The notes beneath the pieces were generated by a model. It was not told the DNA's origin, searched no databases, and worked only from the letters and a program-made list of their open reading frames with translations. A program made the translations under genes and the position numbers. Below, in pieces: positions 24,744 to 55,485 of a DNA stretch of 64,000 nucleotides (the stretch's first letter is position 1; each line of letters begins with the position of its first letter). The stretch is from Candidatus Woesearchaeota archaeon (GTDB taxonomy: Archaea; Nanobdellota; Nanobdellia; Woesearchaeales; DSVV01), in assembly GCA_018303075.1 (NCBI GenBank), contig JAGVYW010000001.1:7156-71155 (forward strand), in the 5' to 3' direction.

Positions 24744-25598
24744 ATGAATAAAAAAGGTGTTTATTCTTTATTAATTGTAGTACTTGTAGTTGTAATAGGC
24801 GCATTAGCATTACTGAGCATAAACGATACAGGCAATGTACTTACTGGAAGTGTTGTATTAGAGATTGATGAGAAAACATTTTCAGATTGTATGAATGTAG
24901 AAGCAAATAGATTAGGAGAATATGATAATATTGAAACTTACTGCAAATGTAAAGCAGAAGAAAAAAAAGGCTGTAACCTATACTTAAAGAAGAAAAACAG
25001 CAAGATGTGTGAAGCGGGATATCTGCCTGAATTCCAATGTGAAAAAAATTCACGGCAAAAAGATATCCAATATCAGAAATATCAATTTGCAGATTGCAAA
25101 AGTAAAATGGTTCCTGTCAAAGAATGTGACTCTGGTTGTGCTGGAGATATCTGTGCAAATCAAGCGTGCACTGATACAGACGGCGGAAATAAACCATATA
25201 TTGGTGGAACTGTTAAAGGAAACAACAAGTTTGACCAGATGACTGAGTTAAGTGATATTTGCACATCTTCTGATACATTAAGAGAATTCTATTGCAAAAA
25301 TGATGTTATTTCAGATATGTACACATCATGTTCTTTTGGCTGTGACAAAGCAAAAGCAGAATGCATTGTTGCTCCTTGTACTGACACAGATGAAGGTCAA
25401 GCAATCTATAAAGCAGGCAAAACAACAGGTGCAGTATTTGGCGAGTCAATTGATGTAAAGACAGTAAAAGATGATGTATGTGTTAACAGCAAACAATTAA
25501 AAGAATATTATTGCCATTTAACTGGAGCTGTTTCATCAGTAACAGTAGATTGCACATATGGCTGTAATGAAGGAAAGTGTACTGCTCCGACTGGATAA
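24744..25598 (+). CDS. Cys-rich secreted repeat protein (N-terminal TM anchor)
   Basis: A signal/anchor segment is followed by repeated modules containing CTDTDGG / CTDTDEG and many paired Cys. Confidence 0.5.
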   Translation: MNKKGVYSLLIVVLVVVIGALALLSINDTGNVLTGSVVLEIDEKTFSDCMNVEANRLGEYDNIETYCKCKAEEKKGCNLYLKKKNSKMCEAGYLPEFQCEKNSRQKDIQYQKYQFADCKSKMVPVKECDSGCAGDICANQACTDTDGGNKPYIGGTVKGNNKFDQMTELSDICTSSDTLREFYCKNDVISDMYTSCSFGCDKAKAECIVAPCTDTDEGQAIYKAGKTTGAVFGESIDVKTVKDDVCVNSKQLKEYYCHLTGAVSSVTVDCTYGCNEGKCTAPTG

Positions 25599-25628
25599 AA
25601 ACAATTATAAAAATAGAGGTGTATAAGT

Positions 25629-27059
25629 ATGTTAAAAAAGGCAAATAATTATAGTTTAGTTATAGTTGGTATTGTTGCAGTTGTTGCGGTTGTTGCATTG
25701 TTTAAGATGTCAGGCAGTAGTTCTTCGATAGAAGTTGAACAAGAATTTGTAACTGAAGATATAACAGGAAATGCAGTTGCAACAGTAAATAATATGCAAG
25801 TTAAAGGAGCAACTTGTAATGTTTTAAAAAGTGGTTCAATTAATTACACAACTTATGGTAGTAGTTATCCTATACGGGTAAATCCAAAGCAATCTTACTG
25901 TGGTACTTCTGAAATCACTGTACCAAAAACAGATGTAGTAAGTTATTCATATAGATGCCAAAATGGCAAATTATACAATGGAACAGTTGTTTGCTCAAAT
26001 GGTTGTGATTCAGCAACAGGAAAATGTAAAACAACAGTTGTACCATCCTCCTCCTTATCTCAACAGATACAATGTTCTGGATTCAAAAATGCAACAAAAA
26101 CAATGATAAATCTTTCTTTTCCTATTAATACTTTTGATGGTTATACATCATCTGTTATTCAAGAGAAATCTATTATTCAAGAGAATAAGACTTTTTGCAG
26201 TTCTACCATTGGTGGATATGATATAACTAGCCTTTCATGTGAAAATGGAATCTTAAAGAATAAAACTATATCATGTAAGCAATATGATTGTGTTGATGGA
26301 GTGTGTCTTAAACCAAGCTGCAAAGAATACAAAGCTTCAAATGGTACAATGATGGTGAACTATTTAGAAATGGATAAGGGTAAATATTCTTGGGGTTATG
26401 GAAAATCTAAAAACATATCAAAACAAATGTGTAATGGTAATAATTTAATCGTATACTCTTGTTATAAACAAAATAATACTTTACAGAAACAATATATTAA
26501 TTGTGAAAATGGATGTAATCTTAATACAGATGTATGCAACCAAAATTATTGCTCTGAATTCAAAAATGTAACAAATGGAGAAATATATATTAATGCAACT
26601 TTGTATTTGAAGAATTATAATAATAATGATTATTTTACTAGTTATTATGGAACTTATGCAAAGGAAAAACCTTATTGTTTGAATTCAAATGAATCAGCTA
26701 TTTATAGATGTACTAGTGGTCTATTAAATACAGAGAAAATAAAATGTAAAGATGGTTGTAATTGGTCAACAGGAGGGTGTAAAACAACAACAATACAAAC
26801 TTCTTCGCTGGTTGTTCAGGATTTTAGCTGTAATTTAATAAATGAAACCCACTTTAATATGACTTATCCAGATGGAGACATATATCCAACTAAAATAGGT
26901 GAATCTAATTGTGGTAATTATATTTATGGCCAATCAAGTTATCAACCAACAAATGCAACATTAATGTATTCTTATAACTGCAGTGGCAGTAAACTTTATA
27001 ATATAACCCAAAAATGTCCAAAAGGATGTGTTATATCTGCAGGAACATGTAAAGAATAA
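25629..27059 (+). CDS. Cys-rich secreted repeat protein (paralogous architecture)
   Basis: An N-terminal TM anchor is followed by at least six repeated modules of the type Y.C.NG.L.N....C..GC......C, which are Asn-rich. Confidence 0.5.
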   Translation: MLKKANNYSLVIVGIVAVVAVVALFKMSGSSSSIEVEQEFVTEDITGNAVATVNNMQVKGATCNVLKSGSINYTTYGSSYPIRVNPKQSYCGTSEITVPKTDVVSYSYRCQNGKLYNGTVVCSNGCDSATGKCKTTVVPSSSLSQQIQCSGFKNATKTMINLSFPINTFDGYTSSVIQEKSIIQENKTFCSSTIGGYDITSLSCENGILKNKTISCKQYDCVDGVCLKPSCKEYKASNGTMMVNYLEMDKGKYSWGYGKSKNISKQMCNGNNLIVYSCYKQNNTLQKQYINCENGCNLNTDVCNQNYCSEFKNVTNGEIYINATLYLKNYNNNDYFTSYYGTYAKEKPYCLNSNESAIYRCTSGLLNTEKIKCKDGCNWSTGGCKTTTIQTSSLVVQDFSCNLINETHFNMTYPDGDIYPTKIGESNCGNYIYGQSSYQPTNATLMYSYNCSGSKLYNITQKCPKGCVISAGTCKE

Positions 27060-43834: not shown

Positions 43835-46183
43835 CTATTTTTCAGAATTGTCTTCTTTGTTATCACTTTCTTCCTTATTACTATCTTCTTGCTTAGGTTC
43901 ATTTTCAGGTTCTCCTTCTTGATCATCTCTTTCCTGATTTTCTGGTTTTTTATCTTCTTCTCTTTCCATTTCTCTGTTATCTCTTTCTCTTCCATCACCA
44001 ATATGTTCTCGATCCTGTTCAAGTTGTTCTATCTCTTTTTGCAATCGTTGTACATCAGTAAAATCTGGAGCTTCTGGACTTGCTTGTTTTGCATCATGGA
44101 GCAACTGTTTTATCTCTTCAGGACTTAAGCTTTCAAAAGAACGGTCACCAATATTGATTTTTCCTTCTTTCTGCATCCTTCTGAGATCCTCCATGAAATT
44201 GAACTGTTGCTGTCCATGCTGTTGCTGACCGTAGTTTTCTCCAATAGGGAATCCTTGTAGCATTGTTGGAATCTCAACTTTTCTTATGACGCCGCCAATA
44301 GCTTCTTCCCTCTTATTTTCATACATCTCTTGATACTTTGCTTGTCCAGTTCCTTCTGTCATCTTTTGCGTGATTATTTCTTTACATGCATCCATTCCAA
44401 TAAATTCGCCATCTTTTATGCATTCTTGGGGAGTTCTTCCTTGACCACCTGGACTTCCACTGCCAAATTCAGGGAAATCACCTTCACCAAATTCTCCTCC
44501 AGAAAATCCTTGACCTTGTCCTTCTCCTTGCTGATATTTATCTTTCATAATTGTTTCACATGCTTCTTGACCTATAAATTCTCCATCCTTCATACATTCT
44601 TGGGGAGTTCTCCCTTGACCTTCACCACCTTCACTACCCATGCCCTGTCCTTGACCTTTAAACTTTTCTTCGCATGCTTCTCGACCAATAAATTTATCAC
44701 CATCAAAACATTCTTTTGGTATTTTTCCTGCATCACGCATTTTTCCAATGCATTCTTTTTCACCAATTGGCTTTCCACCTTCAATGCATTCTTCAGGGAT
44801 ATTTCCTGTTGCCATCATCTTTTCTTCGCATGCTTCCCTGCCTATGAAATCGTCACCATCAAAACATTCTTTTGGTATTTTCCCTGCTTCTTTCATCTTT
44901 TCCAGACATGCGTTTTCTCCAATAGGTCTTCCTTTTTCAACACATTCTTCTGGAATATCACCTGAATCCATTATCTTCTGTTCGCATTCCTCTCGCCCAA
45001 TAAACTTGCCATTTTCCATGCATTGCTTTGGCATTTTCCCAGAATCAACCATTTTCTTGGTGCATTGTTTCTCTCCGATAAACTTGCCATCTGCAACACA
45101 TTCTTCAGGCATTTCACCAGATTCAATCATCTTTTTTGTGCATTGTTTCTCTCCGATAAACTTGCCATCTTTCATACATTCTTCAGGAGGTTCGCCGTGT
45201 TTTTCAATCATTATCTTCTTGCAATCTTCTCTTGTTTTGACACCTGCATCTTTGCATTCTTGTGGTGCAAACTTGTCAAACATCATATCTTCTGACTCAT
45301 CCATAATCTTTCTAAATTCTTCTCGCATAAATTCTGGTAATAGTTCTTCACCTGCATATTCTCCTTCAGAATCAAGCTCTTGGCAGGCTTCTTCGTTTTC
45401 TTCAAACTCACAAAGTATAATCAATTTTTTTTCTTTTTCACAATATGTCTTCATCTTCTGCACAGGAATATCTTGGCATTGACAATTCTGTATATCTTGG
45501 ACGCATGATCTCAATACTTCTACAAATTTATCTGTTGCTTGCCCCTGCATCTTTCTTATATCTGTTTCAATATATTCTTTTAACCAAGCTGGAGCTGTAT
45601 CAGGATTGCATTTTTCTTCTTGCTCCATGAGTGTATAATCGATGCTTGCCAATTGTTCACAGAGGGAGACAATTTTGCCTGCTAATTCTCCTGCAATCTT
45701 ATTTTTTTCTACCTGGCTGGAAAGAGAATCATATAACTCATGGATCTTTTCTTCATCAGGCAATTGTTCTTGCAATTGTTTAAGAATGTCTTGTATCTCT
45801 TTGCTGTCAGCTTCAACCTGTCTTTTTAATTCTGGAGAGATCTCATCTTCAATCAATGCTGAGATATTCTTTGCATTTACTAATGCAACTGTCAAGGCAG
45901 CTGTTTTGTTCTCGGCAGCCATCTGCTGCGCTTCAGCTGCTTTTTCCTTGACAATCTCTAATGCATATTCCACCTTTTCATCTCCATCTTTTGTTGCCAG
46001 TTTTACCTCTTCAACAACCTCATCAATAAAATAAAATGGACTATCTGGAGTAATTCCTGCTTTTGGCGCTTCGATGACAACTTCCTCTTCCTCTACTGCA
46101 GCAGCAAGAATGCCGAGCATAAAAATACTGATTAATGATAGAAATAATAAACTTACTATCTGTCTTACTCTTTTTTTTTGCAT
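43835..46183 (-). CDS. large secreted Cys-rich protein with at least eight tandem ~24-aa repeats (DGKFIGEKQCTKKM..SG.MPEEC)
   Basis: An N-terminal signal peptide precedes an acidic coiled region and then tandem repeats, which are also visible at the DNA level around 44430-45300. The C-terminus is an acidic Glu/Asp/Lys tail. Confidence 0.6.
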   Translation of the reverse strand: MQKKRVRQIVSLLFLSLISIFMLGILAAAVEEEEVVIEAPKAGITPDSPFYFIDEVVEEVKLATKDGDEKVEYALEIVKEKAAEAQQMAAENKTAALTVALVNAKNISALIEDEISPELKRQVEADSKEIQDILKQLQEQLPDEEKIHELYDSLSSQVEKNKIAGELAGKIVSLCEQLASIDYTLMEQEEKCNPDTAPAWLKEYIETDIRKMQGQATDKFVEVLRSCVQDIQNCQCQDIPVQKMKTYCEKEKKLIILCEFEENEEACQELDSEGEYAGEELLPEFMREEFRKIMDESEDMMFDKFAPQECKDAGVKTREDCKKIMIEKHGEPPEECMKDGKFIGEKQCTKKMIESGEMPEECVADGKFIGEKQCTKKMVDSGKMPKQCMENGKFIGREECEQKIMDSGDIPEECVEKGRPIGENACLEKMKEAGKIPKECFDGDDFIGREACEEKMMATGNIPEECIEGGKPIGEKECIGKMRDAGKIPKECFDGDKFIGREACEEKFKGQGQGMGSEGGEGQGRTPQECMKDGEFIGQEACETIMKDKYQQGEGQGQGFSGGEFGEGDFPEFGSGSPGGQGRTPQECIKDGEFIGMDACKEIITQKMTEGTGQAKYQEMYENKREEAIGGVIRKVEIPTMLQGFPIGENYGQQQHGQQQFNFMEDLRRMQKEGKINIGDRSFESLSPEEIKQLLHDAKQASPEAPDFTDVQRLQKEIEQLEQDREHIGDGRERDNREMEREEDKKPENQERDDQEGEPENEPKQEDSNKEESDNKEDNSEK

Positions 46184-46229
46184 AAGAATCCCCTCTTCTT
46201 GGAATTATAACATCTATCTGTTTATAATC

Positions 46230-47429
46230 TTATTCTTTTAGGCTTTGCTCTTTTAATATTGTATCCTCTTTCTTAAGCTTATACTGTTGATACCATGTAT
46301 AGCAATCATGATCGTACATTTTTTCATACCACTTGCATTGCAGAGCAATACATTGATGATTCTCAAGCTTTTCATCCTCTTTACAAATAATCTTTTCGCA
46401 TTGATGGTTCTTAACAATCTCATCAAATTCACATTCAAGTTTCTGACAGCTATGGTTGATTGTAATCTCATCATCCATACAATTCAGACTTTCGCAGGAA
46501 TGATCTTTTATGATCTCATTATCTAAACATTCAAATTTCTGGCAGCTATTATTGTTGCAGATCTCATCATTGCCACATTCATCATCCCCGCAGCATTGAT
46601 ATTTCTTACATTGATGGGATTCAAGAGGATCAATATATTCGCATGTATTGCAATCTAATTTTTGGCAGATGCTGTTTTCACAGATCTCATCAGCCATGCA
46701 TTCATTGTTTTTTTCGCACAATGGAAGTTCACTGCATTCTTTAGCAATTGAAAATCCTGATTTTTCACATTGGTAGTAGACCATAAATTCCTTGATCTTT
46801 TTGTCAGTATCCCATTTTAATGTAAATCTATTGCCATCATTCTTTCGTTTCATTGTGATTGTGAAATTTTCAAATCCTTCGCTTGTAACAACAGGAGTGT
46901 GCCGTATCACTCTATTTGTATCTAGCTTTGCATTGTAATTCAGCGAATAAGGATTAGCAAAACGGAACTCTTTATTTTTGCTGATCGAAAGGTCATTGAT
47001 AAGAAATTTGCCTACAAATGTGTCATTTCTCATATAACAGGATTCAACAAATGATTGATTCAGCATTCTGCAGCTAAAACTAAATATTGGGCATTTGGCA
47101 GTATACCTTTTCTTTCCAATCTTGATGTAATATGAGGTTGGTTCACCTGCAACAAAGATGCCATCTTGTGATTCATATGTATAATAGGTTACTTTTTTCT
47201 TACCTTCTGTTTTCTCTCTGCTACTCCATGCTCCTTTGACAGGAAAATAATTATCTTCTGCTTTAACTAGCCTAGCTGTAACATCATTTCGTATCAATGA
47301 ATCATCAATCTTCAGCGAGCCATCGTCCTTGCATTCGATTTTTGTTGCTGAAACAAATGAGAGGGAAAGAAGGCTGCAAAAGACTAACACCAAAATGATT
47401 CTATTAGAACGTCTGTTCAATGATGCCAT
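46230..47429 (-). CDS. secreted protein with C-terminal Cys-rich repeats (C.x.EI...H.C..L.C modules)
   Basis: A signal peptide is followed by a beta-rich domain and then about seven short Cys repeats (CQKLDC, CQKFEC, CESLNC, CQKLEC...). Confidence 0.55.
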   Translation of the reverse strand: MASLNRRSNRIILVLVFCSLLSLSFVSATKIECKDDGSLKIDDSLIRNDVTARLVKAEDNYFPVKGAWSSREKTEGKKKVTYYTYESQDGIFVAGEPTSYYIKIGKKRYTAKCPIFSFSCRMLNQSFVESCYMRNDTFVGKFLINDLSISKNKEFRFANPYSLNYNAKLDTNRVIRHTPVVTSEGFENFTITMKRKNDGNRFTLKWDTDKKIKEFMVYYQCEKSGFSIAKECSELPLCEKNNECMADEICENSICQKLDCNTCEYIDPLESHQCKKYQCCGDDECGNDEICNNNSCQKFECLDNEIIKDHSCESLNCMDDEITINHSCQKLECEFDEIVKNHQCEKIICKEDEKLENHQCIALQCKWYEKMYDHDCYTWYQQYKLKKEDTILKEQSLKE

Positions 47430-47694: not shown

Positions 47695-48219
47695 ATGCCA
47701 ACAAAAAAAGCATCTATCCATATCATTCTTACAGGTGGAACAATTGATTCGTATTGGAATGGCACCATTGATACTGCTACGCCATTAAAAGAATCTTCTA
47801 TTCCTCTATTTATCTAATCGTTAAAACTCTATGATAAGGTAATGTTCACAACTATTTGTATGAAAGACAGTAGACAATTAGTACAATCTGACAGAAAAAA
47901 GATTTTGATTGCAACTGAACAAAGTCCATGCAAAAAGATAATTATTACGCATGGAACATATACAATACCCGATACAGCTAAGTTTCTGCAGACTAATTTA
48001 CAGCGAAAAGACCAAACAATTATCTTGACAGGTTCAATGATTCCATTAACTGGATTTTCTCCATCAGATGCTCCTTTTAATTTAGGTTTTTCATTTGCAA
48101 AACTGCCAGAATTATCTGCTGGAGTTTACATCTGCATGAACGGAAGAATCTTCACAGCAGATGAAACTATTAAGCTCTTATTTGAAGGAAGGTTTGCGTC
48201 TGTGTTTGGGGAAAAGTGA
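47695..48219 (+). pseudogene. L-asparaginase N-terminal-domain gene carrying an in-frame TAA stop (codon 41)
   Basis: Asparaginase motifs occur in order and with correct spacing: ILTGGTIDS, IIITHGTYT (the HGTDT equivalent), and ILTGSMIPLTGFSPSDAPFNLGFSFA. A single TAA at 47815-47817 interrupts an otherwise continuous frame. No C-terminal asparaginase domain is present. Confidence 0.5.
48127..48219 (+). repeat. ~90-bp direct repeat, left copy (3' end of the asparaginase-like gene)
   Basis: About 90% identical to 48933-49025. The two copies flank the MNT-HEPN cassette. Confidence 0.7.
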
Positions 48220-48260
48220 TCTTAATAACATTTATATATCTGCAATGCATATTATATTTT

Positions 48261-48554
48261 ATGGTGCGAGACAGACTGCAAATACTAAAACTAAAAAAGA
48301 AGATTCTTCCAGTCTTAAGAAAATATCATATTAAAAGAGCGGGTATTTTTGGAAGCTATGCACGTGGAGAACAAAAGAAAAAGAGCGATGTAGATATCCT
48401 AATACTGCCTCCACATGGGCTTGGTCTTGGTTTTATAAGAATTGAATCTGAATTAGAAAAAGTTTTAGATACAAAAGTTGACTTACTTTCATATAATGGG
48501 ATTAATCCTCGCCTAAAAAATAAAATTTTAAAAGATGAGGTCAGAATACTTTGA
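48261..48554 (+). CDS. minimal nucleotidyltransferase (MntA-like antitoxin)
   Basis: The nucleotidyltransferase motif is GIFGSYARGEQKKKSDVDIL, in a protein of about 100 aa. Confidence 0.75.
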   Translation: MVRDRLQILKLKKKILPVLRKYHIKRAGIFGSYARGEQKKKSDVDILILPPHGLGLGFIRIESELEKVLDTKVDLLSYNGINPRLKNKILKDEVRIL

Positions 48555-48898
48555 ATAGAGACTCAATTATCTTCTTAGAGCATATGCTTGATGCAATTAA
48601 TAATATTGACAAGTTTATGTTAACTGTTACTAAACAAGAATTCTTTACTAATGTTGAGAAACATAGCGCAGTAGTTCGCCAACTTGAGATTCTCGGTGAA
48701 GCTGCTAAGAACCTAAAACATTCTTTTATATCGAAATATCAATCTATTCCTTGGAAAGAAATAATCGGTTTGAGAGATAAAGTTATACATCATTATTTTG
48801 GACTTGATATGGAGATAATATTTGATATCGTAAACAAAGAATTACCTCCTTTGAAAAAAAATCTTCAAAAGATAATCAAAATAGAGAATGAGAAATAA
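48551..48898 (+). CDS. HEPN-domain protein (HepT-like toxin, DUF86)
   Basis: The R-x4-HxY HEPN motif is RDKVIHHY. The start overlaps the MNT stop (ATGA), which is the typical MNT-HEPN pair organisation. Confidence 0.75.
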   Translation: MNRDSIIFLEHMLDAINNIDKFMLTVTKQEFFTNVEKHSAVVRQLEILGEAAKNLKHSFISKYQSIPWKEIIGLRDKVIHHYFGLDMEIIFDIVNKELPPLKKNLQKIIKIENEK

Positions 48899-48932
48899 TA
48901 TGCACTCATGTTTGACACTTCTTAATCAACCA

Positions 48933-49025
48933 TACATCTGCATGAACGGAAGAATCTTCACAGCAGATGAAACTATCAAGATCCTATCAGAAGGAAGGTT
49001 TGCGTCTGTGTTTGGAGAGAGATAA
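48933..49025 (+). repeat. ~90-bp direct repeat, right copy: an orphan duplicate of the asparaginase-like gene's 3' end
   Basis: It encodes YICMNGRIFTADETIKILSEGRFASVFGER*, compared with ...YICMNGRIFTADETIKLLFEGRFASVFGEK* in the left copy. Confidence 0.7.
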
Positions 49026-49183: not shown

Positions 49184-49324
49184 ATGAAGAAACCAATATC
49201 TGCAACCATTGATGAAACTCTGATAAAATGGATAGATAAAAAGCTCAAAGATTCTACAGCATATCGCAATAAATCACATTTGATAGAAATAGCACTGCAA
49301 AATATGAAGAAAGATGAGAAATAA
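49184..49324 (+). CDS. ribbon-helix-helix (CopG-family) small protein
   Basis: The 46-aa protein MKKPISATIDETLIKWIDKKLKDSTAYRNKSHLIEIALQNMKKDEK has beta-alpha-alpha RHH topology. It lies immediately upstream of the secretion ATPase and is not in the supplied ORF track because it is under 60 aa. Confidence 0.5.
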   Translation: MKKPISATIDETLIKWIDKKLKDSTAYRNKSHLIEIALQNMKKDEK

Positions 49325-49391
49325 CGTTAGTTGGTAGCAATTAGTTTGTAGTTATCAACTAATAAAAAATCGAACGGAGTGAAGATTTTTT

Positions 49392-52300
49392 ATGCAACAA
49401 AAAAAAGACTGGGATTTTGAAGTGATTAAAGAAGGAGAAGAAAATATATTGTACATATATTGTGAAGGGGTAAGCATATCGCCTTTAGTTGAAGATTCAA
49501 GTATTGTGATGATTAGAACAATCGATATTCTTTCTCAAGTATCCGGTATAAGCAAGATAATATTCAATCAAAAAAGAGATTATGAGTATGATTTCAAACA
49601 AACACAGATTCTTGCAGAGATTGCAGAACTTTATAAAAAACTAATAAAAGAAAAGAATTATTTCAATTATCCTACTGCTGGTAATTACGATAATAGGATT
49701 ATCAATCAGAAATATAATGAATTGCGAGAAATTATATTTAAACATATGAAAGGAGATCCTATTGGCGCATATATTGAATTAACAAGAATAATGCGAAGAG
49801 AAAAGATTGATCTTGAAAAAGTAGTTGAACAGATACAACAGGATATTACAAAAAGGTATATAGCAATAATAAGCTACGTTACAAGCCTTCTTGAAAAGAC
49901 AAGAATGCTAATACTTGCAAAACCATACATTGCTGGCTATAAAATTGGAGATAGAAGCGTTTACAAATACATTTTCACTCCGTCAATAAAGCCAGATTTT
50001 ATGTTTACAAAATTAATGGCTAATTTTCCAAGCAATGCTGAAGAGATTGATTCATACATAATTGGCGACGATACAGATGTTACTATCTTTCGTCTGCCTG
50101 ATTCAACAATAATACTCTATCATATTGTACCGCCTGAATTCAAGCTTCCTGAAGAAAAATATGAATTATTAGATATGGCAAGAAAAATTCTTGCAGAACA
50201 CAAGCCAAAACAAGAAGAGTTTACAGATCCAGAAAGGATGCGCGAGGTATTTTCTAATATTGGCAAGGACTTGCTTGAAGAGATTGCAACATCGAAGAAT
50301 ATTATGTTGAGAGAGAAAGAGCTGCAAAAATTAACGCAAATCTTAGTGCGATACACTATTGGTTTTGGGTTGATTGAAGTGTTATTGCAGGATGATGATA
50401 TGCAAGATATCTCAATCAACAGTCCATTGGGAAAGATACCTATATTCATTGTGCATGGAAAATATGGCGATTGCACAACAAATATTATCCCGACAAAATC
50501 AGAATCTGAAAGCTGGGCGTCAAAATTGAGATTAATCTCTGCCCGTCCATTAGACGAAGCAAATCCAATATTAGATACAGAATTAGAACTGCCTGGTGCA
50601 TCTACAAGAGTTTCTGTAATTACACGGCCATTAAATCCAACAGGACTAGCATTTTCTTTTAGAAAACATAGAGATAAACCCTGGACGTTACCATTGTTCA
50701 TTAAATTCAAAATGTTGAATCCTATTGCAGCTGGTTTAATCAGTTTCCTTGTTGATGGAACGCGGACAATTTTAATTGCAGGAACAAGAAGTGCAGGAAA
50801 ATCATCTTTTTTGACAGGGGTGCTTGTTGAGATTATGAGAAAGTATAGGATAATAACAGTAGAAGACAGCGTTGCAGGTGATTCTGAGATATTAATCAGA
50901 AATAATAATAAATGGCAAAGAACAACAATAGGGAATCTTATTGATAAACAGCTAGAGAAACAAGTTTCATTACAGACATTTTCTGGACATGAGGTTGCAG
51001 AAAATACTGAAGATATTGAAATTTTTGCAATGAACAAAAAAGGAAAGATCGTAGTCACAAAACCTTCTGTATTTATTCGACATAAAGTAACAAAACCAAT
51101 CTATGAGATAAAAACAAGAACAGGAAAGATATTGAAAGTAACAGGAGATCATTCTCTATTTGCAATTGGAGAAAACGCAGAGATTTCAGAGGCAAAAGTG
51201 AATAATCTAAACATCGGAAACAAAATAGCTGTAGCAAGAAAACTACCGTTAATCAATCAAGAAAAAGAATTTATGAACATATTATACGATGTAATTGAAA
51301 GAACAGATTCATTTATTACAGGTTTAACAACAAACTATTGCTTAGAACATCATTTTAATGATATATTATCATTTGGTTCAGCAAGAAATGTTAGCTCTGC
51401 AACAATAAAAAGTTGGAGAAGAAACAAAGTTCTTCCTGGATATATTGCTAAAGATCTTATGACACTCCATCAAACACTTGACTTTTCAACAGATAAATTC
51501 AGAATCAATAATTCACAGAAATTGATATCATTAAAGATACAATTGAATGAAGATTTTATGACATTTATTGGATTATGGATTGCAGATGGGTGTTATGATA
51601 AAAAATCAATTATCATATCCTGCAATGATCCAGAAGACAGAGCAGTTGTAGAAAAAGTTGGAAAAAGCTTTGGAATACAATACAAGATGCATAGTGATGG
51701 CATTTCATATATGCTCAATTCCAAAACATTGAAAGTGGTATTGCAGGATATTCTTTCATGCACTGGGGATTCATACACTAAAAGAGTTCCTGGATGGATA
51801 TACACACTCTCCCCGCAGCAAATTGCTGCATTTTTACGAGGAGTATTTACTGGCGATGGCTGCGCTACAGACAAAGAAATAGTAATCAATCTTTGTAGCA
51901 GGCATCTTCTCTCTGATATGCAAACATTACTCTTGATTTTCAATATTAGTCTGAGAATAGGGAATTTTATTCCAAGAGATAAAACAATACGAGCTGCTAT
52001 CTCTGGAAACGAATATCTAACAAGTTTTGCAAAATATATTGGATTTCTACAACCATATAAAAACAATGTTCTTTCAAGACTTTGTGAGAAAAAGATAACT
52101 CATGATACAACAGATACATTTGATTTAAGAATAAATACAAAAATAGAACTTGCTAACTTATTTGGCAAGAGATTCAATAAAAATGATTACATAAACAGAA
52201 ATAACAGCATAGGAAGAAGAAAACTTACATCATTATTGCAAGTACAATCGCAAACACAGATGCTAGAGTTACAGCATCAAATACTAGAAAACTTAAAGCA

Positions 52301-53234
52301 ATTGCTTGAATCAGATATATATTGGGATGAGATAATTGAGATAGAAAAAATGGAGAATTTTGAAGGATATGTCTATGACCTTTCTGTACCTGATTATGAA
52401 AGCTTTATCTGTAGAAATATTATAGCACACAATACGTTAGAGTTGCCTAACAAAGCTTTTCGTGATCTTGGATTTAACATACAATCAATGAAAGTTGCAA
52501 GCGCATTGGCCCATGATTCAACAGAAGTTTCTGCTGAAATTGGAATCAGAACAACACTTCGTCTAGGAGATTCAGCATTGATTGTAGGAGAAGTTAGAAG
52601 TAAAGAAGCAGTTGCATTGTACGAAGCAATGCGTGTTGGCGCTGCTGCAAATGTTGTTGCAGGAACAATTCACGGCGATTCTCCTTATGGGGTATATGAC
52701 AGAGTTGTAAATGATATTGGCATTCCCAAGACATCATTCAAAGCAACAGACATCATCATTGTTACAAATCCAATAAAATCAGCAGATGGTATGCATAAAT
52801 ACAAGAGAGTTACACAGATAACAGAAGTGCGAAAGCGCTGGGAAAATGATCCAATGGAGGAAAAAGCATTTGTTGATCTGATGAAATATGAGCCAAAAAC
52901 AGATGAATTATTGATCACTCCTGACCTAAAAAATGGCGATTCAGAAATTCTCAAAGCAATTGCAGGAAATGTCAAGGAATTTGCTGGCAGCTGGGATGCA
53001 GTATGGGATAATATCCTTTTACGTGGAACAATTAAAGAGAATATAGTGAAGATGGCAGAACAAACAAAAAATGACGAATTATTGGAGGCTCCATTTGTGA
53101 CAAAAGCTAATGACATGTTCCACATAATATCTGAAAAAGTAAAAGAAGAAGTTGGTTTTTTAGACAGTAAAAAGATACTCTTTCAATGGAATGATTGGTT
53201 GAGTAGAGAAGTAAGAAAGACGCAGAAAAGTTGA
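49392..53234 (+). CDS. type II/IV secretion-family ATPase (FlaI/GspE/VirB11-like) containing a large intein
   Basis: The Walker A site is AGTRSAGKSS. The Asp box RIITVED|TLEL is split by the intein. Downstream motifs are LIVGEVRSKEA and TIHGDSP (the His box). The extein is about 758 aa with a long N-terminal domain. Confidence 0.85.
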   Translation: MQQKKDWDFEVIKEGEENILYIYCEGVSISPLVEDSSIVMIRTIDILSQVSGISKIIFNQKRDYEYDFKQTQILAEIAELYKKLIKEKNYFNYPTAGNYDNRIINQKYNELREIIFKHMKGDPIGAYIELTRIMRREKIDLEKVVEQIQQDITKRYIAIISYVTSLLEKTRMLILAKPYIAGYKIGDRSVYKYIFTPSIKPDFMFTKLMANFPSNAEEIDSYIIGDDTDVTIFRLPDSTIILYHIVPPEFKLPEEKYELLDMARKILAEHKPKQEEFTDPERMREVFSNIGKDLLEEIATSKNIMLREKELQKLTQILVRYTIGFGLIEVLLQDDDMQDISINSPLGKIPIFIVHGKYGDCTTNIIPTKSESESWASKLRLISARPLDEANPILDTELELPGASTRVSVITRPLNPTGLAFSFRKHRDKPWTLPLFIKFKMLNPIAAGLISFLVDGTRTILIAGTRSAGKSSFLTGVLVEIMRKYRIITVEDSVAGDSEILIRNNNKWQRTTIGNLIDKQLEKQVSLQTFSGHEVAENTEDIEIFAMNKKGKIVVTKPSVFIRHKVTKPIYEIKTRTGKILKVTGDHSLFAIGENAEISEAKVNNLNIGNKIAVARKLPLINQEKEFMNILYDVIERTDSFITGLTTNYCLEHHFNDILSFGSARNVSSATIKSWRRNKVLPGYIAKDLMTLHQTLDFSTDKFRINNSQKLISLKIQLNEDFMTFIGLWIADGCYDKKSIIISCNDPEDRAVVEKVGKSFGIQYKMHSDGISYMLNSKTLKVVLQDILSCTGDSYTKRVPGWIYTLSPQQIAAFLRGVFTGDGCATDKEIVINLCSRHLLSDMQTLLLIFNISLRIGNFIPRDKTIRAAISGNEYLTSFAKYIGFLQPYKNNVLSRLCEKKITHDTTDTFDLRINTKIELANLFGKRFNKNDYINRNNSIGRRKLTSLLQVQSQTQMLELQHQILENLKQLLESDIYWDEIIEIEKMENFEGYVYDLSVPDYESFICRNIIAHNTLELPNKAFRDLGFNIQSMKVASALAHDSTEVSAEIGIRTTLRLGDSALIVGEVRSKEAVALYEAMRVGAAANVVAGTIHGDSPYGVYDRVVNDIGIPKTSFKATDIIIVTNPIKSADGMHKYKRVTQITEVRKRWENDPMEEKAFVDLMKYEPKTDELLITPDLKNGDSEILKAIAGNVKEFAGSWDAVWDNILLRGTIKENIVKMAEQTKNDELLEAPFVTKANDMFHIISEKVKEEVGFLDSKKILFQWNDWLSREVRKTQKS
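50868..52433 (+). mobile_element. intein (522 aa) with a LAGLIDADG homing-endonuclease domain, inserted in the Asp box of the secretion ATPase
   Basis: Block A begins with Ser: SVAGDSEILI. The LAGLIDADG motifs are FIGLWIADG and FLRGVFTGDG. The C-terminal block is VYDLSVPDYESFICRNIIAHN followed by the +1 Thr. Removing the intein restores RIITVEDTLELP. Confidence 0.8.
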
Positions 53235-53271
53235 TAATTATTATTTGGTCAATAGAATAATCAGAATGTGA

Positions 53272-55485
53272 ATGATAATGGCAGACAAAGAAGAAGAAAT
53301 GAGAAGATTAATGGAAAAGTATAAGAAGAAGATGAATCAGCAGTTTGGAGAATCTTCTTTTGAGGAATATACACCTGAAAAGATAACAAGTGTTGAGTAT
53401 GAAAAATTCAAGAAAGAGCGTATGCCAAAGATATTGACATGGTATGAAAAAACATGTAATTTCTGCGGTAATATCTTAAAATTAAAACCAGGAAAAGAAG
53501 ATGAAGCAGATATAATTGAATCATTAAGAATTGCGCACATTGAAACAACACCAGAGGGCGTAACTCGTTTTTCTATACTTATTCCATTCTTATTAATTGT
53601 AGGTGGTGTATTACTAAGCATTGTAATACCTGGAATCTTTGGCGGCAGTCCAAGCACATTTTTTATAATGATATTTATTTTTATTGGATTAGTTATGATG
53701 TTTTCTCTAAAATCATTGCCGCGATTTTTTGCTGATCATTACAGATTAGAAGCAAGCAATGAGATGGTTTTGTCCATATTTTATATTGTAACATATATGA
53801 GACACACATCAAACCTAGAGCTTGCTGTTCGTTTTGCATCTGATCATTTAACAGGACAATTAGCATTAGATTTAAAGAAAGTACTATGGGATGTTGAAAC
53901 AGAGAAATATGGCAATATTAAAGAATCAATTGATAATTACTTAGAAACTTGGAGAAAGTGGAACATGGAATATATTGAAGCATTCCATTTAATTGAATCT
54001 TCATTATACGAAACATCTGAACCTAGAAGAATTGAGATGTTAGAAAAAAGCCTTAATTTAATTCTTAGTGAAACATATGAAAAGATGCTGCATTATGCAC
54101 ATAATCTAAAATCTCCAATTACAATGCTTCACATGTTAGGAATAATCCTGCCAGTCTTAGGATTAGTTATGCTGCCATTAATTGTAAGTTTCATGGGTAA
54201 TGTAAAATGGTATTATATAGCAACTATCTATAACATTATTCTTCCAATTGGTGTATATTATCTTGGAAAAAATATACTCTCACAACGTCCAACTGGCTAT
54301 GGTGATACTGATGTCAGCGATGAAGTACCAAGCTTAAAAAAATATAAGAATATCAATTTTAAGTTAGGAGCTGTTGAATATTCAATAAATCCTGCGTATA
54401 TGTGTATAGGTATTGGAATACTATTTTTACTTATTGCATTATTACCTATAATGCTGCATGTAGTAGGTTTTCCAGATCTTGGTTTTGGTGAAGAGGATAA
54501 AGGAACAGGTTGTATGAAAACATTTTGTTTATTGGATTATAGAGAAGTAACAACTGCAGAAGAAACATTTATTGTTGGTCCATTTGGATTTATTGCCTCA
54601 ATTCTTAGTTTGTTCTTTCCATTAGCAATTGCTTTCTCACTTGGATTGTACTACAAGATGAGCAGTCAAAATATTATCAAAATTCGAGAAGATACAAAAA
54701 AGCTTGAGAATGAATTTGCATCTGGTTTATTTCAGTTAGGCAACAGATTAGGAGATGGAATTCCAGCTGAAAGTGCATTTGGAAAGGTTGCAGAAGTTAT
54801 GCAGAATAATGAAGCAGGAAAATTTTTTTCAATAGTTAATCAAAATATCCTAAAATTAGGGATGGATGTAGAAACAGCAATATTTAACAGTAAAACTGGA
54901 GCAATTGTTTCATTTCCATCACAAATGATTAATAGTTCTATGAAAGTATTAATTCAATCAGTAGAAAAAGGTCCAAAGATTGCTGCACAATCTCTAGTAA
55001 ATGTTTCTAGGTATATTAAAGAAATGCATCGTGTTAATGAACGATTAAAAGATCTTTTGGCAGATGTTATTTCTTCAATGAAGTCACAAATAAGTATTAT
55101 GACACCAGCAATCGCTGGAATAGTTGTAGGCATTACATCAATGATTGTTAATATATTGGGAAAACTTGGTCCAATGTTAAAAGCAAAACAAGCAGAACAA
55201 TCAGGAGTAGCCGGGGCATTCCAAGGGGTTGATTTCTTTAATGTTGGCATACCTGTATATTACTTTCAACTTGTTGTAGGAATCTATGTTGTACAAATAA
55301 TCTATATCCTAACTATTTTAGTAAATGGAATTGAAAATGGCACTGACAAACTGCAAGAAAATTACTTACTAGGAAAAAACCTTATAAGAAGCACAATAAT
55401 CTATGTAGGAATATCATTAGTAGTAATGATTGCATTCAACTTAATAGCTAATGCAGTCATTGGTGGAGTGTTGGGTGCGGGATAG
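53272..55485 (+). CDS. FlaJ/TadC-like polytopic membrane platform protein of an archaeal type IV pilus/archaellum-like system
   Basis: The 737-aa protein has two blocks of transmembrane helices separated by cytoplasmic domains, and it lies immediately downstream of the FlaI-like ATPase, as in flaI-flaJ and tadA-tadBC pairs. Confidence 0.6.
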   Translation: MIMADKEEEMRRLMEKYKKKMNQQFGESSFEEYTPEKITSVEYEKFKKERMPKILTWYEKTCNFCGNILKLKPGKEDEADIIESLRIAHIETTPEGVTRFSILIPFLLIVGGVLLSIVIPGIFGGSPSTFFIMIFIFIGLVMMFSLKSLPRFFADHYRLEASNEMVLSIFYIVTYMRHTSNLELAVRFASDHLTGQLALDLKKVLWDVETEKYGNIKESIDNYLETWRKWNMEYIEAFHLIESSLYETSEPRRIEMLEKSLNLILSETYEKMLHYAHNLKSPITMLHMLGIILPVLGLVMLPLIVSFMGNVKWYYIATIYNIILPIGVYYLGKNILSQRPTGYGDTDVSDEVPSLKKYKNINFKLGAVEYSINPAYMCIGIGILFLLIALLPIMLHVVGFPDLGFGEEDKGTGCMKTFCLLDYREVTTAEETFIVGPFGFIASILSLFFPLAIAFSLGLYYKMSSQNIIKIREDTKKLENEFASGLFQLGNRLGDGIPAESAFGKVAEVMQNNEAGKFFSIVNQNILKLGMDVETAIFNSKTGAIVSFPSQMINSSMKVLIQSVEKGPKIAAQSLVNVSRYIKEMHRVNERLKDLLADVISSMKSQISIMTPAIAGIVVGITSMIVNILGKLGPMLKAKQAEQSGVAGAFQGVDFFNVGIPVYYFQLVVGIYVVQIIYILTILVNGIENGTDKLQENYLLGKNLIRSTIIYVGISLVVMIAFNLIANAVIGGVLGAG

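What the first reader, a model, noticed from the sequence alone, without database searches (positions are those of the whole stretch)
49184..55485. Pilus/archaellum-type secretion module (RHH, FlaI-like ATPase, FlaJ-like platform) whose ATPase is split by a 522-aa LAGLIDADG intein in the Asp box
The three co-oriented genes form a minimal archaeal type-IV-filament or conjugation-like ATPase/platform pair with a small RHH regulator. No pilin or Fla accessory genes are adjacent, so this is not a canonical archaellum locus, and its function (adhesion pilus, DNA transfer, or host interaction in a DPANN-type symbiont) is open. The intein begins with Ser rather than Cys and ends HN|T. It sits between the conserved ED and TLEL residues of the Asp box, so the ATPase must splice to function. 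The homing endonuclease appears intact, with both LAGLIDADG motifs present. The N-terminal domain is unusually long, about 480 aa before Walker A.
Basis: partly seen in the sequence, partly recalled or inferred. Interest (0 to 1): 0.7.

Follow-up and report, generated by a model that had tools for sequence, protein, structure and literature searches.

The report
Intein-split pilus-type ATPase operon, Woesearchaeota
A DPANN (Woesearchaeota) archaeon carries a three-gene operon for a small regulator-like protein, a pilus/secretion-type motor ATPase and its membrane platform. The ATPase gene is interrupted by a self-splicing, mobile intein, which is a real but fairly ordinary example of a known phenomenon.

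Summary
Three co-oriented ORFs are present: 49184-49324, 49392-53234 and 53272-55485. A 522-aa intein (50868-52433; Ser1, His-Asn, Thr+1) sits between D492 and T493 of the ATPase Asp box.

- **Intein:** excising it restores one contiguous T2SSE/GspE-type ATPase. All splicing blocks and both LAGLIDADG motifs are intact.
- **Small ORF:** probably ribbon-helix-helix, on weak evidence.
- **Distribution:** the ATPase-platform pair is chromosomal and 60-83% conserved. It occurs at no fewer than 593 loci in species-representative Woesearchaeota/Nanoarchaeota genomes.
- **Intein mobility:** the intein is sporadic (8 of the best 120 homologs). It occupies two alternative sites, the Asp box or just after Walker B, and nearly identical exteins can carry different inteins.

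Inteins in archaeal VirB11/CpaF-type ATPases are already catalogued, so this is a new member of a known kind. The module is not a FlaI/FlaJ archaellum orthologue or a VirB11 conjugation system. Its filament or substrate remains unidentified.

The parts
49184..49324 (+). Small conserved ORF (46 aa), probable ribbon-helix-helix protein. It is the first gene of the operon.
   Evidence: ORF. The same ORF (MKKPISATI..LI.WI...YRNKSHLIEIAL) lies directly upstream of the ATPase in L001, L002, L083 and L084 and in 28 of 75 assessable GTDB loci by the strict adjacency script; its sequence motif occurs in 37 of 82 loci. 12 of 23 family members hit Pfam RHH_1 (best E 0.001) and 7 of 23 hit ParD_antitoxin. 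The profile aligns end to end with CopG 1b01/2cpg at E about 0.7-0.9. The window copy alone has no Pfam hit.
49392..53234 (+). Precursor ORF (1280 aa) of a T2SSE/GspE/FlaI-superfamily ATPase containing one intein
   Evidence: The exact sequence is in NCBI, named 'Flp pilus assembly complex ATPase component TadA [Candidatus Woesearchaeota archaeon]'.
49392..50096 (+). Lineage-specific N-terminal extension of the ATPase (aa 1-235). It comprises a small alpha/beta unit plus a helical bundle and has no counterpart in afGspE, FlaI or CpaF.
49392..50867 (+). N-extein (aa 1-492), containing Walker A (GTRSAGKS, nt 50781-50804) and the first half of the Asp box (RIITVED, nt 50847-50867)
50868..52433 (+). 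Class-1 intein, 522 aa (Ser1 ... His-Asn, followed by Thr+1), with an embedded LAGLIDADG homing endonuclease
   Evidence: Pfam Intein_splicing 1.9e-27 and LAGLIDADG_3 2.5e-14; TIGR01445/01443. The closest solved structure is PI-PkoII 2cw7, 1.3e-18. Blocks: A SVAGDS 50868-50885; B KVTGDHSLF 51135-51161; DOD1 GLWIADGCYDK 51570-51602; DOD2 FLRGVFTGDGC 51831-51863; F YVYDLSVPDYESFIC 52368-52412; G NIIAHN 52416-52433.
52434..53234 (+). C-extein (aa 1015-1280). It contains Thr+1 and the second half of the Asp box (TLELP, 52434-52448), Walker B (SALIVGEVR, 52572-52598) and a variant His box (AMRVGAAANVVAGTIHG, 52626-52676).
53272..55485 (+). Polytopic membrane platform protein (737 aa), a divergent GspF/PilC/FlaJ/TadC (T2SSF) type. 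It has two cytoplasmic helical domains (about aa 147-288, nt 53710-54135; about aa 460-606, nt 54649-55089), about 8-9 TM helices, and a beta-rich loop with a conserved Cys pair (about aa 340-440).

Best explanation
This is a chromosomal, vertically inherited operon that is typical of Woesearchaeota (class Nanoarchaeia). It encodes the core motor of a type-IV-filament-superfamily machine.

**Components**
1. A small, probably ribbon-helix-helix, DNA-binding protein.
2. A GspE/FlaI/CpaF-superfamily hexameric ATPase with a lineage-specific N-terminal extension of about 190-230 aa.
3. A polytopic platform protein with two GspF/PilC-like cytoplasmic domains.

**Intein**
- The ATPase is translated as a 1280-aa precursor, because a canonical class-1 intein is inserted between Asp492 and Thr493 of the catalytic Asp box.
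- The intein has Ser1, a TxxH block B, a terminal His-Asn, and uses the invariant Asp-box Thr as the +1 nucleophile.
- Protein splicing must rejoin ...RIITVED-TLELP... before the nucleotide-binding site can form.
- The intein carries an apparently intact two-motif LAGLIDADG homing endonuclease.
- It behaves as a selfish mobile element: its distribution is sporadic, there is a second allelic site after Walker B, and near-identical exteins carry different inteins.

**Shown:** gene structure, intein boundaries and motifs, extein contiguity, superfamily membership of the ATPase and platform, conservation, and intein sporadicity.

**Inferred:** that splicing occurs, and that the spliced hexamer drives the platform to assemble (or retract) a filament of class-III-signal-peptide subunits encoded elsewhere. 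It is also inferred that the small protein regulates the operon. The biological role is not known; adhesion or host contact are only conjecture.
For: - **Boundaries and motifs:**
- **Extein contiguity:** after excision, a single T2SSE hit spans 376-597 (50.9 bits against a cut-off of 24.9). The best PDB matches are afGspE 2oap 1.1e-27, CpaF 2e-23 and FlaI 4e-15, with the alignment running straight through 'iitvedtlelp'.
- **+1 residue:** T493 is invariant in 24 family members.
- **Platform:**
- **Operon conservation:** the small ORF, ATPase and platform occur together in L001, L002, L083 and L084. The platform lies downstream in 55 of 71 loci. Gaps between the small ORF and the ATPase are often -1 to +4 nt.
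- **Distribution:** at least 593 loci in species-representative genomes, with titles naming Woesearchaeota/Nanoarchaeota.
- **Housekeeping context:** flanks carry an OB-fold Ssb-like gene and GlyRS, which are syntenic in distant relatives, so this is not a mobile element.
- **Intein mobility:** 8 of the best 120 homologs carry an intein. There are two insertion sites. P0010 (site a) and P0009 (site b) have exteins 96.5% identical. For P0009 against P0034, the inteins are 73% identical and the exteins 69%. The closest relative, L084, has the same 522-aa intein at 84% identity while its exteins are 95.5% identical. The 83%-identical relative L083 is intein-free and matches the spliced junction in frame at 50 of 66 junction nucleotides. 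A Micrarchaeota homologue has a mini-intein of about 160 aa at the same site.
Against: - No filament subunit, prepilin peptidase or other type IV pilus/archaellum accessory gene is adjacent. Only two class-III-signal-like ORFs lie about 24 kb upstream, and they are unverified.
- The platform protein itself fails every Pfam and NCBIfam model. It also fails sequence-profile searches of the PDB.
- The family's His box lacks the first conserved His (AMRVGAAAN instead of AM.TGH). This is invariant in the family, so its enzymology may differ from studied relatives.
- In most relatives the pair is linked to non-pilin partners: two coiled-coil proteins and 2-3 tandem 5-TM proteins. These do not resemble known type IV pilus accessories and are absent from this window.
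- RHH evidence is weak.
- Splicing and endonuclease activity are untested.
Confidence: 0.75

Rival explanations
1. The pair is the core of a lineage-specific machine of the type-IV-filament superfamily that does not build a conventional pilus. It would work with the conserved coiled-coil and 5-TM proteins seen next to it in most Woesearchaeota, for example as a cell-cell contact, translocation or host-interaction apparatus of DPANN archaea.
For: - A coiled-coil protein is present in 54 of 82 loci, a UBA/HTH-like plus coiled-coil protein in 44 of 82, and 2-3 tandem 5-TM proteins of about 190 aa in 36 of 82 loci. All lack Pfam hits.
- No pilins are adjacent in any locus inspected.
- The N-terminal extension is unique, the His box is variant, and the platform has an extra beta-rich loop with a conserved Cys pair.
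- Conservation is very high, at 60-83% identity across the order.
Against: - The partners are absent from the whole 64-kb window and from the closest relatives' loci, so linkage is not obligatory.
- Archaeal pilins are commonly encoded away from their ATPase/TadC operon (PMC4858521).
- Woesearchaeota express archaellin/pilin-type genes highly (PMC11606122).
- There is no positive evidence for any alternative substrate.
Confidence: 0.2
2. It is the archaellum motor core (FlaI/FlaJ) of a motile Woesearchaeon.
For: JGI labels family members 'archaeal flagellar protein FlaI'. The best NCBIfam hit is the FlaI equivalog NF058587 at 4.6e-36. Woesearchaeota MAGs are reported to carry flaB/H/I/J/K (PMC11606122).
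Against: - The FlaI equivalog scores 124.6 bits against a cut-off of 550, and TadA scores almost the same at 108 bits.
- Solved FlaI (58 bits) is a weaker match than afGspE (99.8) or CpaF (85.5).
- No FlaH, FlaF/G, FlaB or FlaC/D/E gene is in the operon or within 10 kb in five loci. All archaellated archaea keep these seven components (PMC4858521).
- The platform is not recognised by any FlaJ/T2SSF model directly.
Confidence: 0.05
3. It is a VirB11/TrbB-type ATPase of a conjugative or DNA-transfer (type IV secretion-like) element, and the RHH protein is a plasmid-style regulator or antitoxin.
For: There are weak hits to TrbB (3.3e-17) and VirB11 (2.2e-16). The small ORF gives weak ParD/CopG-like hits. 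An MNT/HEPN toxin-antitoxin pair lies immediately upstream.
Against: - Scores are far below the cut-offs: 62.7 against 304 for TrbB and 59.8 against 250 for VirB11.
- There is no VirB4, coupling protein, relaxase or integrase nearby.
- The locus is chromosomal, sits among housekeeping genes, and is syntenic in at least 593 loci.
- The partner is a GspF/PilC-type platform, which type IV secretion systems lack.
- The MNT/HEPN pair is a local insertion bounded by an 86-nt duplication and is absent from relatives.
Confidence: 0.04
4. The intein is a decayed remnant that no longer splices, so this ATPase copy is a pseudogene.
For: Thr+1 and Ser1 are weaker nucleophiles than Cys. The intein evolves faster than its host: 84% against 95.5% identity with L084.
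Against: - The 1280-codon frame is uninterrupted.
- All splicing blocks and both endonuclease motifs are intact and conserved among four allelic inteins.
- The exteins remain 60-83% identical to intein-free orthologues.
- There is no second copy in the window.
- Ser1/Thr+1 class-1 inteins are common.
Confidence: 0.05

Closest known systems
Inteins of archaeal secretion ATPases: VirB11 (COG0630, 21 inteins) and CpaF (COG4962, 5 inteins) in Novikova et al. 2016 (PMC4760082), and the KlbA inteins of Methanococcus/Pyrococcus (PMC2807308)
   Same: An intein interrupts a conserved catalytic motif of an archaeal VirB11/GspE-superfamily P-loop ATPase. The distribution is sporadic and mobile.
   Different: KlbA inteins are class 2 (Ala1, Cys+1) mini-inteins. 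This one is a standard class 1 intein (Ser1, Thr+1) with a full LAGLIDADG endonuclease. No KlbA chain appeared among PDB sequence matches to this intein. The host is a DPANN-specific ATPase family. I could not check whether the published survey lists the Asp-box and post-Walker-B sites, because its supplement is not held.
afGspE (Archaeoglobus fulgidus, PDB 2OAP), CpaF (8RKD/9E24) and FlaI (4II7) secretion/assembly ATPases
   Same: The N2 and C-terminal ATPase domains align over about 420 residues, with Walker A, Asp box and Walker B conserved. The protein passes the Pfam T2SSE gathering score.
   Different: There are about 190-230 extra N-terminal residues of unknown fold affinity. The first His of the His box is replaced (VGAAAN). 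The protein does not reach any equivalog cut-off for FlaI, TadA, TrbB or VirB11. It carries an intein.
GspF/PilC/TcpE/FlaJ/TadC platform proteins (Pfam T2SSF PF00482) and SpoIIIAB
   Different: The window protein itself has no significant hit to any model. It is larger (737 aa), with a cytoplasmic N-terminal extension of about 95 aa and a beta-rich loop containing a conserved Cys pair.
PI-PkoII (Thermococcus kodakarensis Pol intein-2, PDB 2CW7) and the RpoA'' intein covered by NCBIfam PRK14898
   Same: They share the Hint splicing domain plus LAGLIDADG endonuclease architecture. These are the best solved and profile matches (1.3e-18; 3.1e-46).
   Different: The host proteins and insertion sites differ, and identity is low. 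The nearest relatives of this intein (38-56% identity) are all at the same site of the same ATPase family.
CopG/Arc/MetJ ribbon-helix-helix repressors (Pfam RHH_1; PDB 1B01/2CPG)
   Same: The size is the same (45-46 aa). The alignment is end to end. The sequence follows a beta-strand (KPISATI), helix, helix pattern.
   Different: The match is not statistically significant for the window copy. The ORF is present upstream of the ATPase in only about 45% of family loci. DNA binding is untested.

Membership tests
Class 1 (standard) intein | N-terminal Cys/Ser nucleophile (block A) | tested here: met
   Ser1 (SVAGDS) at nt 50868; conserved as S in 4 of 4 allelic inteins
Class 1 (standard) intein | Block B TxxH | tested here: met
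   KVTGDHSLF, nt 51135-51161; T..DH is conserved in all four
Class 1 (standard) intein | C-terminal His-Asn and a +1 Cys/Ser/Thr (block G), with a block F Asp | tested here: met
   NIIAHN|T. Block F is VYDLSVP..ESFIC. Thr+1 equals T493, which is invariant in the family.
Class 1 (standard) intein | Removal restores a contiguous, conserved host protein | tested here: met
   A single T2SSE stretch and contiguous alignments to 2oap and CpaF. Intein-free orthologues read IEDTLE(L/I)P.
Class 1 (standard) intein | Curated HMMs for the splicing domain | tested here: met
   PF14890 93.7 bits (cut-off 35.8); TIGR01445 47.4 (24.5); TIGR01443 19.5 (15.6)
Class 1 (standard) intein | Actual protein splicing | not testable with these tools
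   Needs expression and mass spectrometry
Class 2 (KlbA-type) intein | Ala1 with Cys+1 attacking the N-terminal junction directly | tested here: not met
   Ser1 and Thr+1; definition from PMC2807308
LAGLIDADG homing endonuclease (two-motif, intein-borne) | Two LAGLIDADG motifs, each with the catalytic acidic residue; Pfam model | tested here: met
   GLWIADGCYDK and FLRGVFTGDGC, conserved in 4 of 4 alleles. PF14528 53.7 bits against 22.5, two stretches.
LAGLIDADG homing endonuclease (two-motif, intein-borne) | Cleavage of the intein-free allele (homing) | not testable with these tools
   There is only indirect support: sporadic distribution and different site occupancy in exteins that are 96.5% identical.
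T2SSE / GspE-FlaI-CpaF-VirB11 secretion ATPase superfamily | Walker A, Asp box and Walker B in order; Pfam PF00437 above threshold | tested here: met
   GTRSAGKS, RIITVED-TLEL, SALIVGEVR. The spliced protein scores 50.9 bits against 24.9.
T2SSE / GspE-FlaI-CpaF-VirB11 secretion ATPase superfamily | His box with two conserved His (AM.TGH...T.H) | tested here: not met
   It reads AMRVGAAANVVAGTIHG. The first His is absent and only the second is kept. This is invariant across 24 family members.
FlaI (archaellum motor ATPase, NCBIfam NF058587 equivalog) | Score above the equivalog cut-off | tested here: not met
   124.6 bits against 550
FlaI (archaellum motor ATPase, NCBIfam NF058587 equivalog) | Operon context with FlaH, FlaJ, FlaF/G and archaellins | tested here: not met
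   None found in the window flanks or in four related loci with 10-kb flanks
TadA/CpaF and VirB11/TrbB equivalogs | Score above the equivalog cut-off | tested here: not met
   TIGR03819 108.3 against 373; TIGR02782 62.7 against 304.6; TIGR02788 59.8 against 250
T2SSF platform protein (GspF/PilC/FlaJ/TadC) | Pfam PF00482 hit on the protein itself | tested here: not met
   No hit at E<=0.1
T2SSF platform protein (GspF/PilC/FlaJ/TadC) | Homology to proteins that pass PF00482 | tested here: met
   23 of 42 family representatives hit T2SSF. P0302 scores 40.5 bits and P0390 32.8 bits against a cut-off of 25.2. The window protein against P0302 gives 6e-106 over the full length.
T2SSF platform protein (GspF/PilC/FlaJ/TadC) | Cytoplasmic helical-bundle domain fold | tested here: met
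T2SSF platform protein (GspF/PilC/FlaJ/TadC) | Two such domains alternating with TM helices, encoded next to the ATPase | tested here: met
   Helical domains at about 147-288 and 460-606, with about 8-9 hydrophobic helices. The second domain matches EpsF/Spore_III_AB weakly. Adjacency holds in 55 of 71 loci.
Ribbon-helix-helix (CopG/Arc/MetJ) DNA-binding proteins | Significant match to RHH models or structures | tested here: inconclusive
   The window copy has no Pfam hit, and ParD TIGR02606 gives E 0.046. 12 of 23 relatives hit RHH_1 (best E 0.001). CopG aligns over the full length at E 0.7-0.9.

The most novel reading that the evidence does not exclude
The Woesearchaeota-wide ATPase/platform pair would not be the motor of an ordinary adhesion pilus or archaellum. 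It has a unique N-terminal domain, a His box lacking its first His, and an enlarged platform. In most genomes it has dedicated coiled-coil and 5-TM partners. On this reading it is the core of a distinct, undescribed DPANN machine of the type-IV-filament superfamily, for example for host attachment or exchange. The two intein sites in catalytic motifs would then gate its activity post-translationally.
Probability: 0.15. Interest if true: 0.65.

Novelty: new member of a known kind. Interest (0 to 1): 0.35.

Why it matters
The intein itself adds one or two insertion sites to a known pattern, in which inteins target catalytic motifs of P-loop ATPases, archaeal secretion ATPases included. It offers a natural Ser1/Thr+1 intein pair for splicing studies.

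The context is more useful. The ATPase/platform pair is one of the most conserved membrane-associated systems of Woesearchaeota, with at least 593 loci at about 60% identity or more. Its platform protein is annotated everywhere as 'hypothetical' with no domain. Recognising it as a GspF/PilC/FlaJ-type platform would improve annotation of thousands of DPANN proteins. It also points to candidate partner proteins for the surface apparatus that these host-dependent archaea are thought to use.

Tried and rejected
- **Foldseek against AFDB50:** the library was not available.
- **Foldseek against PDB, whole platform model:** the top-ranked hits were meaningless transporters. Only the domain-level OutF and PilC hits were informative.
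- **Sequence profiles of the platform family against PDB:** the narrow family profile found nothing. The diverse profile found only EpsF at E 0.37.
- **Sigma-70 promoter and terminator scan:** counts equalled the shuffled expectation, and the scan is inappropriate for an archaeon.
- **Internal-repeat BLAST between the two halves of the platform:** no significant similarity.
- **Cluster look-up of distant platform homologues:** no organism names returned.
- **Supplement of the intein survey:** not held, so I could not compare its VirB11 insertion sites.
- **Pfam on the conserved coiled-coil and 5-TM neighbour proteins:** only noise.
- **Toxin-antitoxin reading of the small ORF:** considered and rejected. 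There is no adjacent toxin, and the ORF is tightly coupled to the ATPase start in many genomes.
- **Mobile-element or plasmid origin of the module:** considered and rejected, given housekeeping synteny across many species.

Full report
**1. Observation**

The three ORFs exist as described: 49184-49324 (46 aa), 49392-53234 (1280 aa) and 53272-55485 (737 aa), all on the + strand. In the long ORF, RIITVED ends at aa 492 and IIAHN ends at aa 1014. The proposed intein is therefore nt 50868-52433, 522 aa, exactly as reported, beginning with Ser and followed by Thr.

HMM evidence for the intein is strong: Pfam Intein_splicing (1.3e-26), LAGLIDADG_3 (2.7e-13), and the TIGR intein N- and C-terminal models above their cut-offs. 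The T2SSE match of the precursor is broken into two stretches. After conceptual excision it becomes one stretch, 376-597, at 50.9 bits against a cut-off of 24.9.

The spliced protein aligns without a gap across 'iitvedtlelp' to the Archaeoglobus GspE structure 2OAP ('vvsiedtrei', 1.1e-27). It also aligns to CpaF (2e-23) and FlaI (4e-15). The second, missing splicing blocks, is not met either.

**2. The intein**

Four allelic inteins at this site were aligned: the window copy, P0010, P0020 and P0110. The alignment shows conserved block A (SV.GD), block B (T.DH), two LAGLIDADG motifs with their acidic residues (GLW.ADGCYDK and FL.G.F.GDGC), block F (VYD.SVP..ESFIC) and block G (NI.AHN). The +1 Thr is the invariant Thr of the Asp box (T493), so the intein exploits a residue the host cannot change.

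- The closest solved relative is PI-PkoII.
- The closest profile is the intein-containing RpoA'' model.
- The nearest sequences (38-56% identity) are all inteins at the same site of the same ATPase family in Nanoarchaeota/Woesearchaeota.
- A Micrarchaeota homologue carries a mini-intein of about 160 aa there.

**3. Mobility of the intein**

Only 8 of the 120 best ATPase homologues carry an intein, and they use two different sites. Site a is the Asp box (ED|S...AHN|TLELP). Site b is just after Walker B (GEVRS|SLRG...LLHN|TEA, where intein-free proteins read GEVRSKEA).

| Comparison | Extein identity | Intein identity | Note |
|---|---|---|---|
| P0010 (site a) vs P0009 (site b) | 96.5% | 29.8% | Different sites |
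| P0009 vs P0034 (both site b) | 69% | 73% | Inteins more alike than their hosts |
| Site-a vs site-b inteins overall | not applicable | 26-31% | |
| Window vs L084 (nearest genome) | 95.5% | 84% | Same 522-aa intein |

The L084 comparison is. The 83%-identical relative L083 is intein-free and matches the spliced junction in frame. This is the signature of a homing, selfish element with vertical persistence and occasional gain or loss.

Inteins in archaeal VirB11 (21 cases) and CpaF (5 cases) ATPases were already tabulated by Novikova et al. (PMC4760082). The KlbA inteins of a VirB11-like archaeal protein define class 2 inteins (PMC2807308). The present intein is class 1, not KlbA-like.

**4. 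The ATPase**

The exact protein is in NCBI as 'Flp pilus assembly complex ATPase component TadA [Candidatus Woesearchaeota archaeon]'. The intein-free form is about 762 aa and is 60-83% identical across Woesearchaeota.

Their titles name Woesearchaeota, Nanoarchaeota or Nanobdellota, apart from evidently mislabelled bins.

The protein does not reach any equivalog threshold: FlaI 124.6 against 550, TadA 108 against 373, TrbB 63 against 305, VirB11 60 against 250. It is therefore a superfamily member, not an orthologue of a named system.

Two family traits stand out.

- **N-terminal extension.** An extension of about 190-230 residues folds confidently (pLDDT 86) into a small alpha/beta unit plus a helical bundle, but has no specific structural neighbour.
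- **Variant His box.** The motif reads AMRVGAAANVVAGTIHG. It lacks the first canonical His and is invariant in the family.

**5. The membrane protein**

It has no Pfam or NCBIfam hit and is annotated 'hypothetical' throughout. It is nevertheless 57-65% conserved across the order.

- An exhaustive profile search found 1258 cluster representatives.
- In a diverse sample 24-48% identical to the window protein, 23 of 42 hit Pfam T2SSF (best 3.2e-10) and 4 hit Spore_III_AB.
- P0302 and P0390 exceed the T2SSF gathering score, with full-length matches to the model at about residues 140-300.
- The window protein aligns over its full length to P0302 at 6e-106.
- The AlphaFold model (pLDDT 76) has two cytoplasmic helical domains separated by TM helices.

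The third refutation criterion, no FlaJ/TadC homology, is therefore not met. The protein is a divergent platform protein.

**6. The small ORF**

Its sequence is strongly conserved (MKKPISATI..LI.WI...YRNKSHLIEIAL). It sits directly upstream of the ATPase, often overlapping or abutting it, in L001, L002, L083 and L084 and in 28 of 75 assessable loci by the strict adjacency script. Its sequence motif occurs in 37 of 82 loci.

RHH membership is suggested but not proven. 12 of 23 members hit RHH_1 (best E 0.001) and 7 hit ParD. The family profile aligns end to end with CopG at E about 0.7-0.9.

**7. Context**

The window is chromosomal. It carries a ribosomal-protein/SecY cluster, aminoacyl-tRNA synthetases and DNA polymerase B. 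Downstream of the module lie an OB-fold Ssb-like gene, a CYTH gene and GlyRS. The OB-fold gene and GlyRS are also near the module in distant relatives.

No pilin, archaellin, FlaH or peptidase is adjacent. Two ORFs with class-III-like signal peptides lie at 24744-27059.

In most other Woesearchaeota the ATPase is preceded, divergently, by two proteins. One is a coiled-coil protein of about 150 aa (54 of 82 loci). The other is a UBA/HTH-like plus coiled-coil protein of about 225 aa (44 of 82). Further upstream lie 2-3 tandem 5-TM proteins of about 190 aa (36 of 82). None has a Pfam assignment, and none is present anywhere in this window. Here the upstream flank holds an MNT/HEPN pair bounded by an 86-nt direct repeat derived from an asparaginase gene. 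The related genome L084 has a different insertion at the same place.

**8. Mechanism and verdict**

Shown:
- an operon for a secretion-superfamily ATPase and a GspF/PilC-type platform, widely conserved in a DPANN order;
- an intact class-1 intein with a LAGLIDADG endonuclease in the Asp box.

Inferred:
- the precursor splices to give an active hexameric ATPase;
- that ATPase powers the platform to assemble a filament from subunits encoded elsewhere;
- the small protein regulates transcription.

The archaellum, conjugation and pseudogene readings are poorly supported. A lineage-specific non-pilus machine remains possible, at about 0.15-0.2.

The most useful by-products are the recognition of the unannotated platform family, the second intein site, and the conserved uncharacterised partner genes.

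Noticed in passing
P0009, P0011, P0034, P0116 (homologues; corresponds to window aa 1069/1070 of the precursor, about nt 52598): There is a second, unrelated intein allele in the same ATPase family, inserted just after Walker B (GEVRS|SLRG...LLHN|TEA). It is also Ser1/Thr+1 with a LAGLIDADG endonuclease. Intein-free proteins have Lys where these have Thr+1. P0009 (site b) and P0010 (site a) have exteins 96.5% identical.
   Followed up: partly
P0415 (Ca. Micrarchaeota ATPase homologue): A mini-intein of about 160 aa without an endonuclease sits at the same Asp-box site (ILAQED|SVTGDS...NIIAHN|TQEIP). The site is therefore used beyond Woesearchaeota, and endonuclease loss has occurred.
   Followed up: no
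window 52626-52676: The His box of the ATPase reads AMRVGAAANVVAGTIHG. The first canonical His (AM.TGH) is replaced, and this is invariant in 24 family members. The enzymatic consequence is unknown.
   Followed up: partly
L001:6555-9601 and 36-54 of loci L003-L082 (upstream of the ATPase): A conserved neighbourhood is absent from this window. It comprises 2-3 tandem 5-TM proteins of about 190 aa, a protein of about 225 aa with an N-terminal 'QGLSNNQIIQxLQRxGY..QIFxAMNQA' domain plus coiled coil, and a coiled-coil protein of about 150 aa (RLRxLEERYxNLRKK). None has a Pfam hit. These are candidate partners of the machine.
   Followed up: partly
window 47842-49025: An MNT (nucleotidyltransferase)/HEPN toxin-antitoxin-like gene pair (48216-48898) is bracketed by an 86-nt direct repeat (48127-48212 and 48933-49018, 93% identical). 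The repeat duplicates the 3' end of a truncated asparaginase-like ORF and looks like an insertion with target duplication. The related genome L084 has an AAA_14/DUF234 gene at this position instead.
   Followed up: partly
window 24744-25598 and 25629-27059: Two adjacent ORFs (284 and 476 aa) have short charged N-termini followed by a strongly hydrophobic helix (MNKKG|VYSLLIVVLVVVIGALALL; MLKKA|NNYSLVIVGIVAVVAVVALF). This resembles class III (prepilin-like) signal peptides. Neither has a Pfam hit. They are possible filament subunits about 24 kb from the ATPase.
   Followed up: partly
window 43835-47429 (- strand): Two large secreted proteins lie upstream. One is 782 aa with DUF5667 and many Cys-containing 'ECxxxGKFIGExxC' repeats plus an acidic tail. 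The other is a 399-aa Cys-rich protein. Both are also present upstream in L084.
   Followed up: no
window 54289-54591 (platform aa about 340-440): The platform protein has a beta-strand-rich loop between TM helices, with two nearly invariant Cys (C414, C419). Among the solved platform structures matched here, only cytoplasmic domains were available for comparison. The loop is possibly an extracellular, disulfide-bonded element.
   Followed up: no
L004, L013, L015, L017, L020 and others (record titles): Many GTDB species-representative bins that carry this Woesearchaeota-specific gene are titled 'uncultured Methanosarcinales archaeon', and one 'Armatimonadota bacterium'. These are likely placeholder names or mis-binned contigs.
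   Followed up: no
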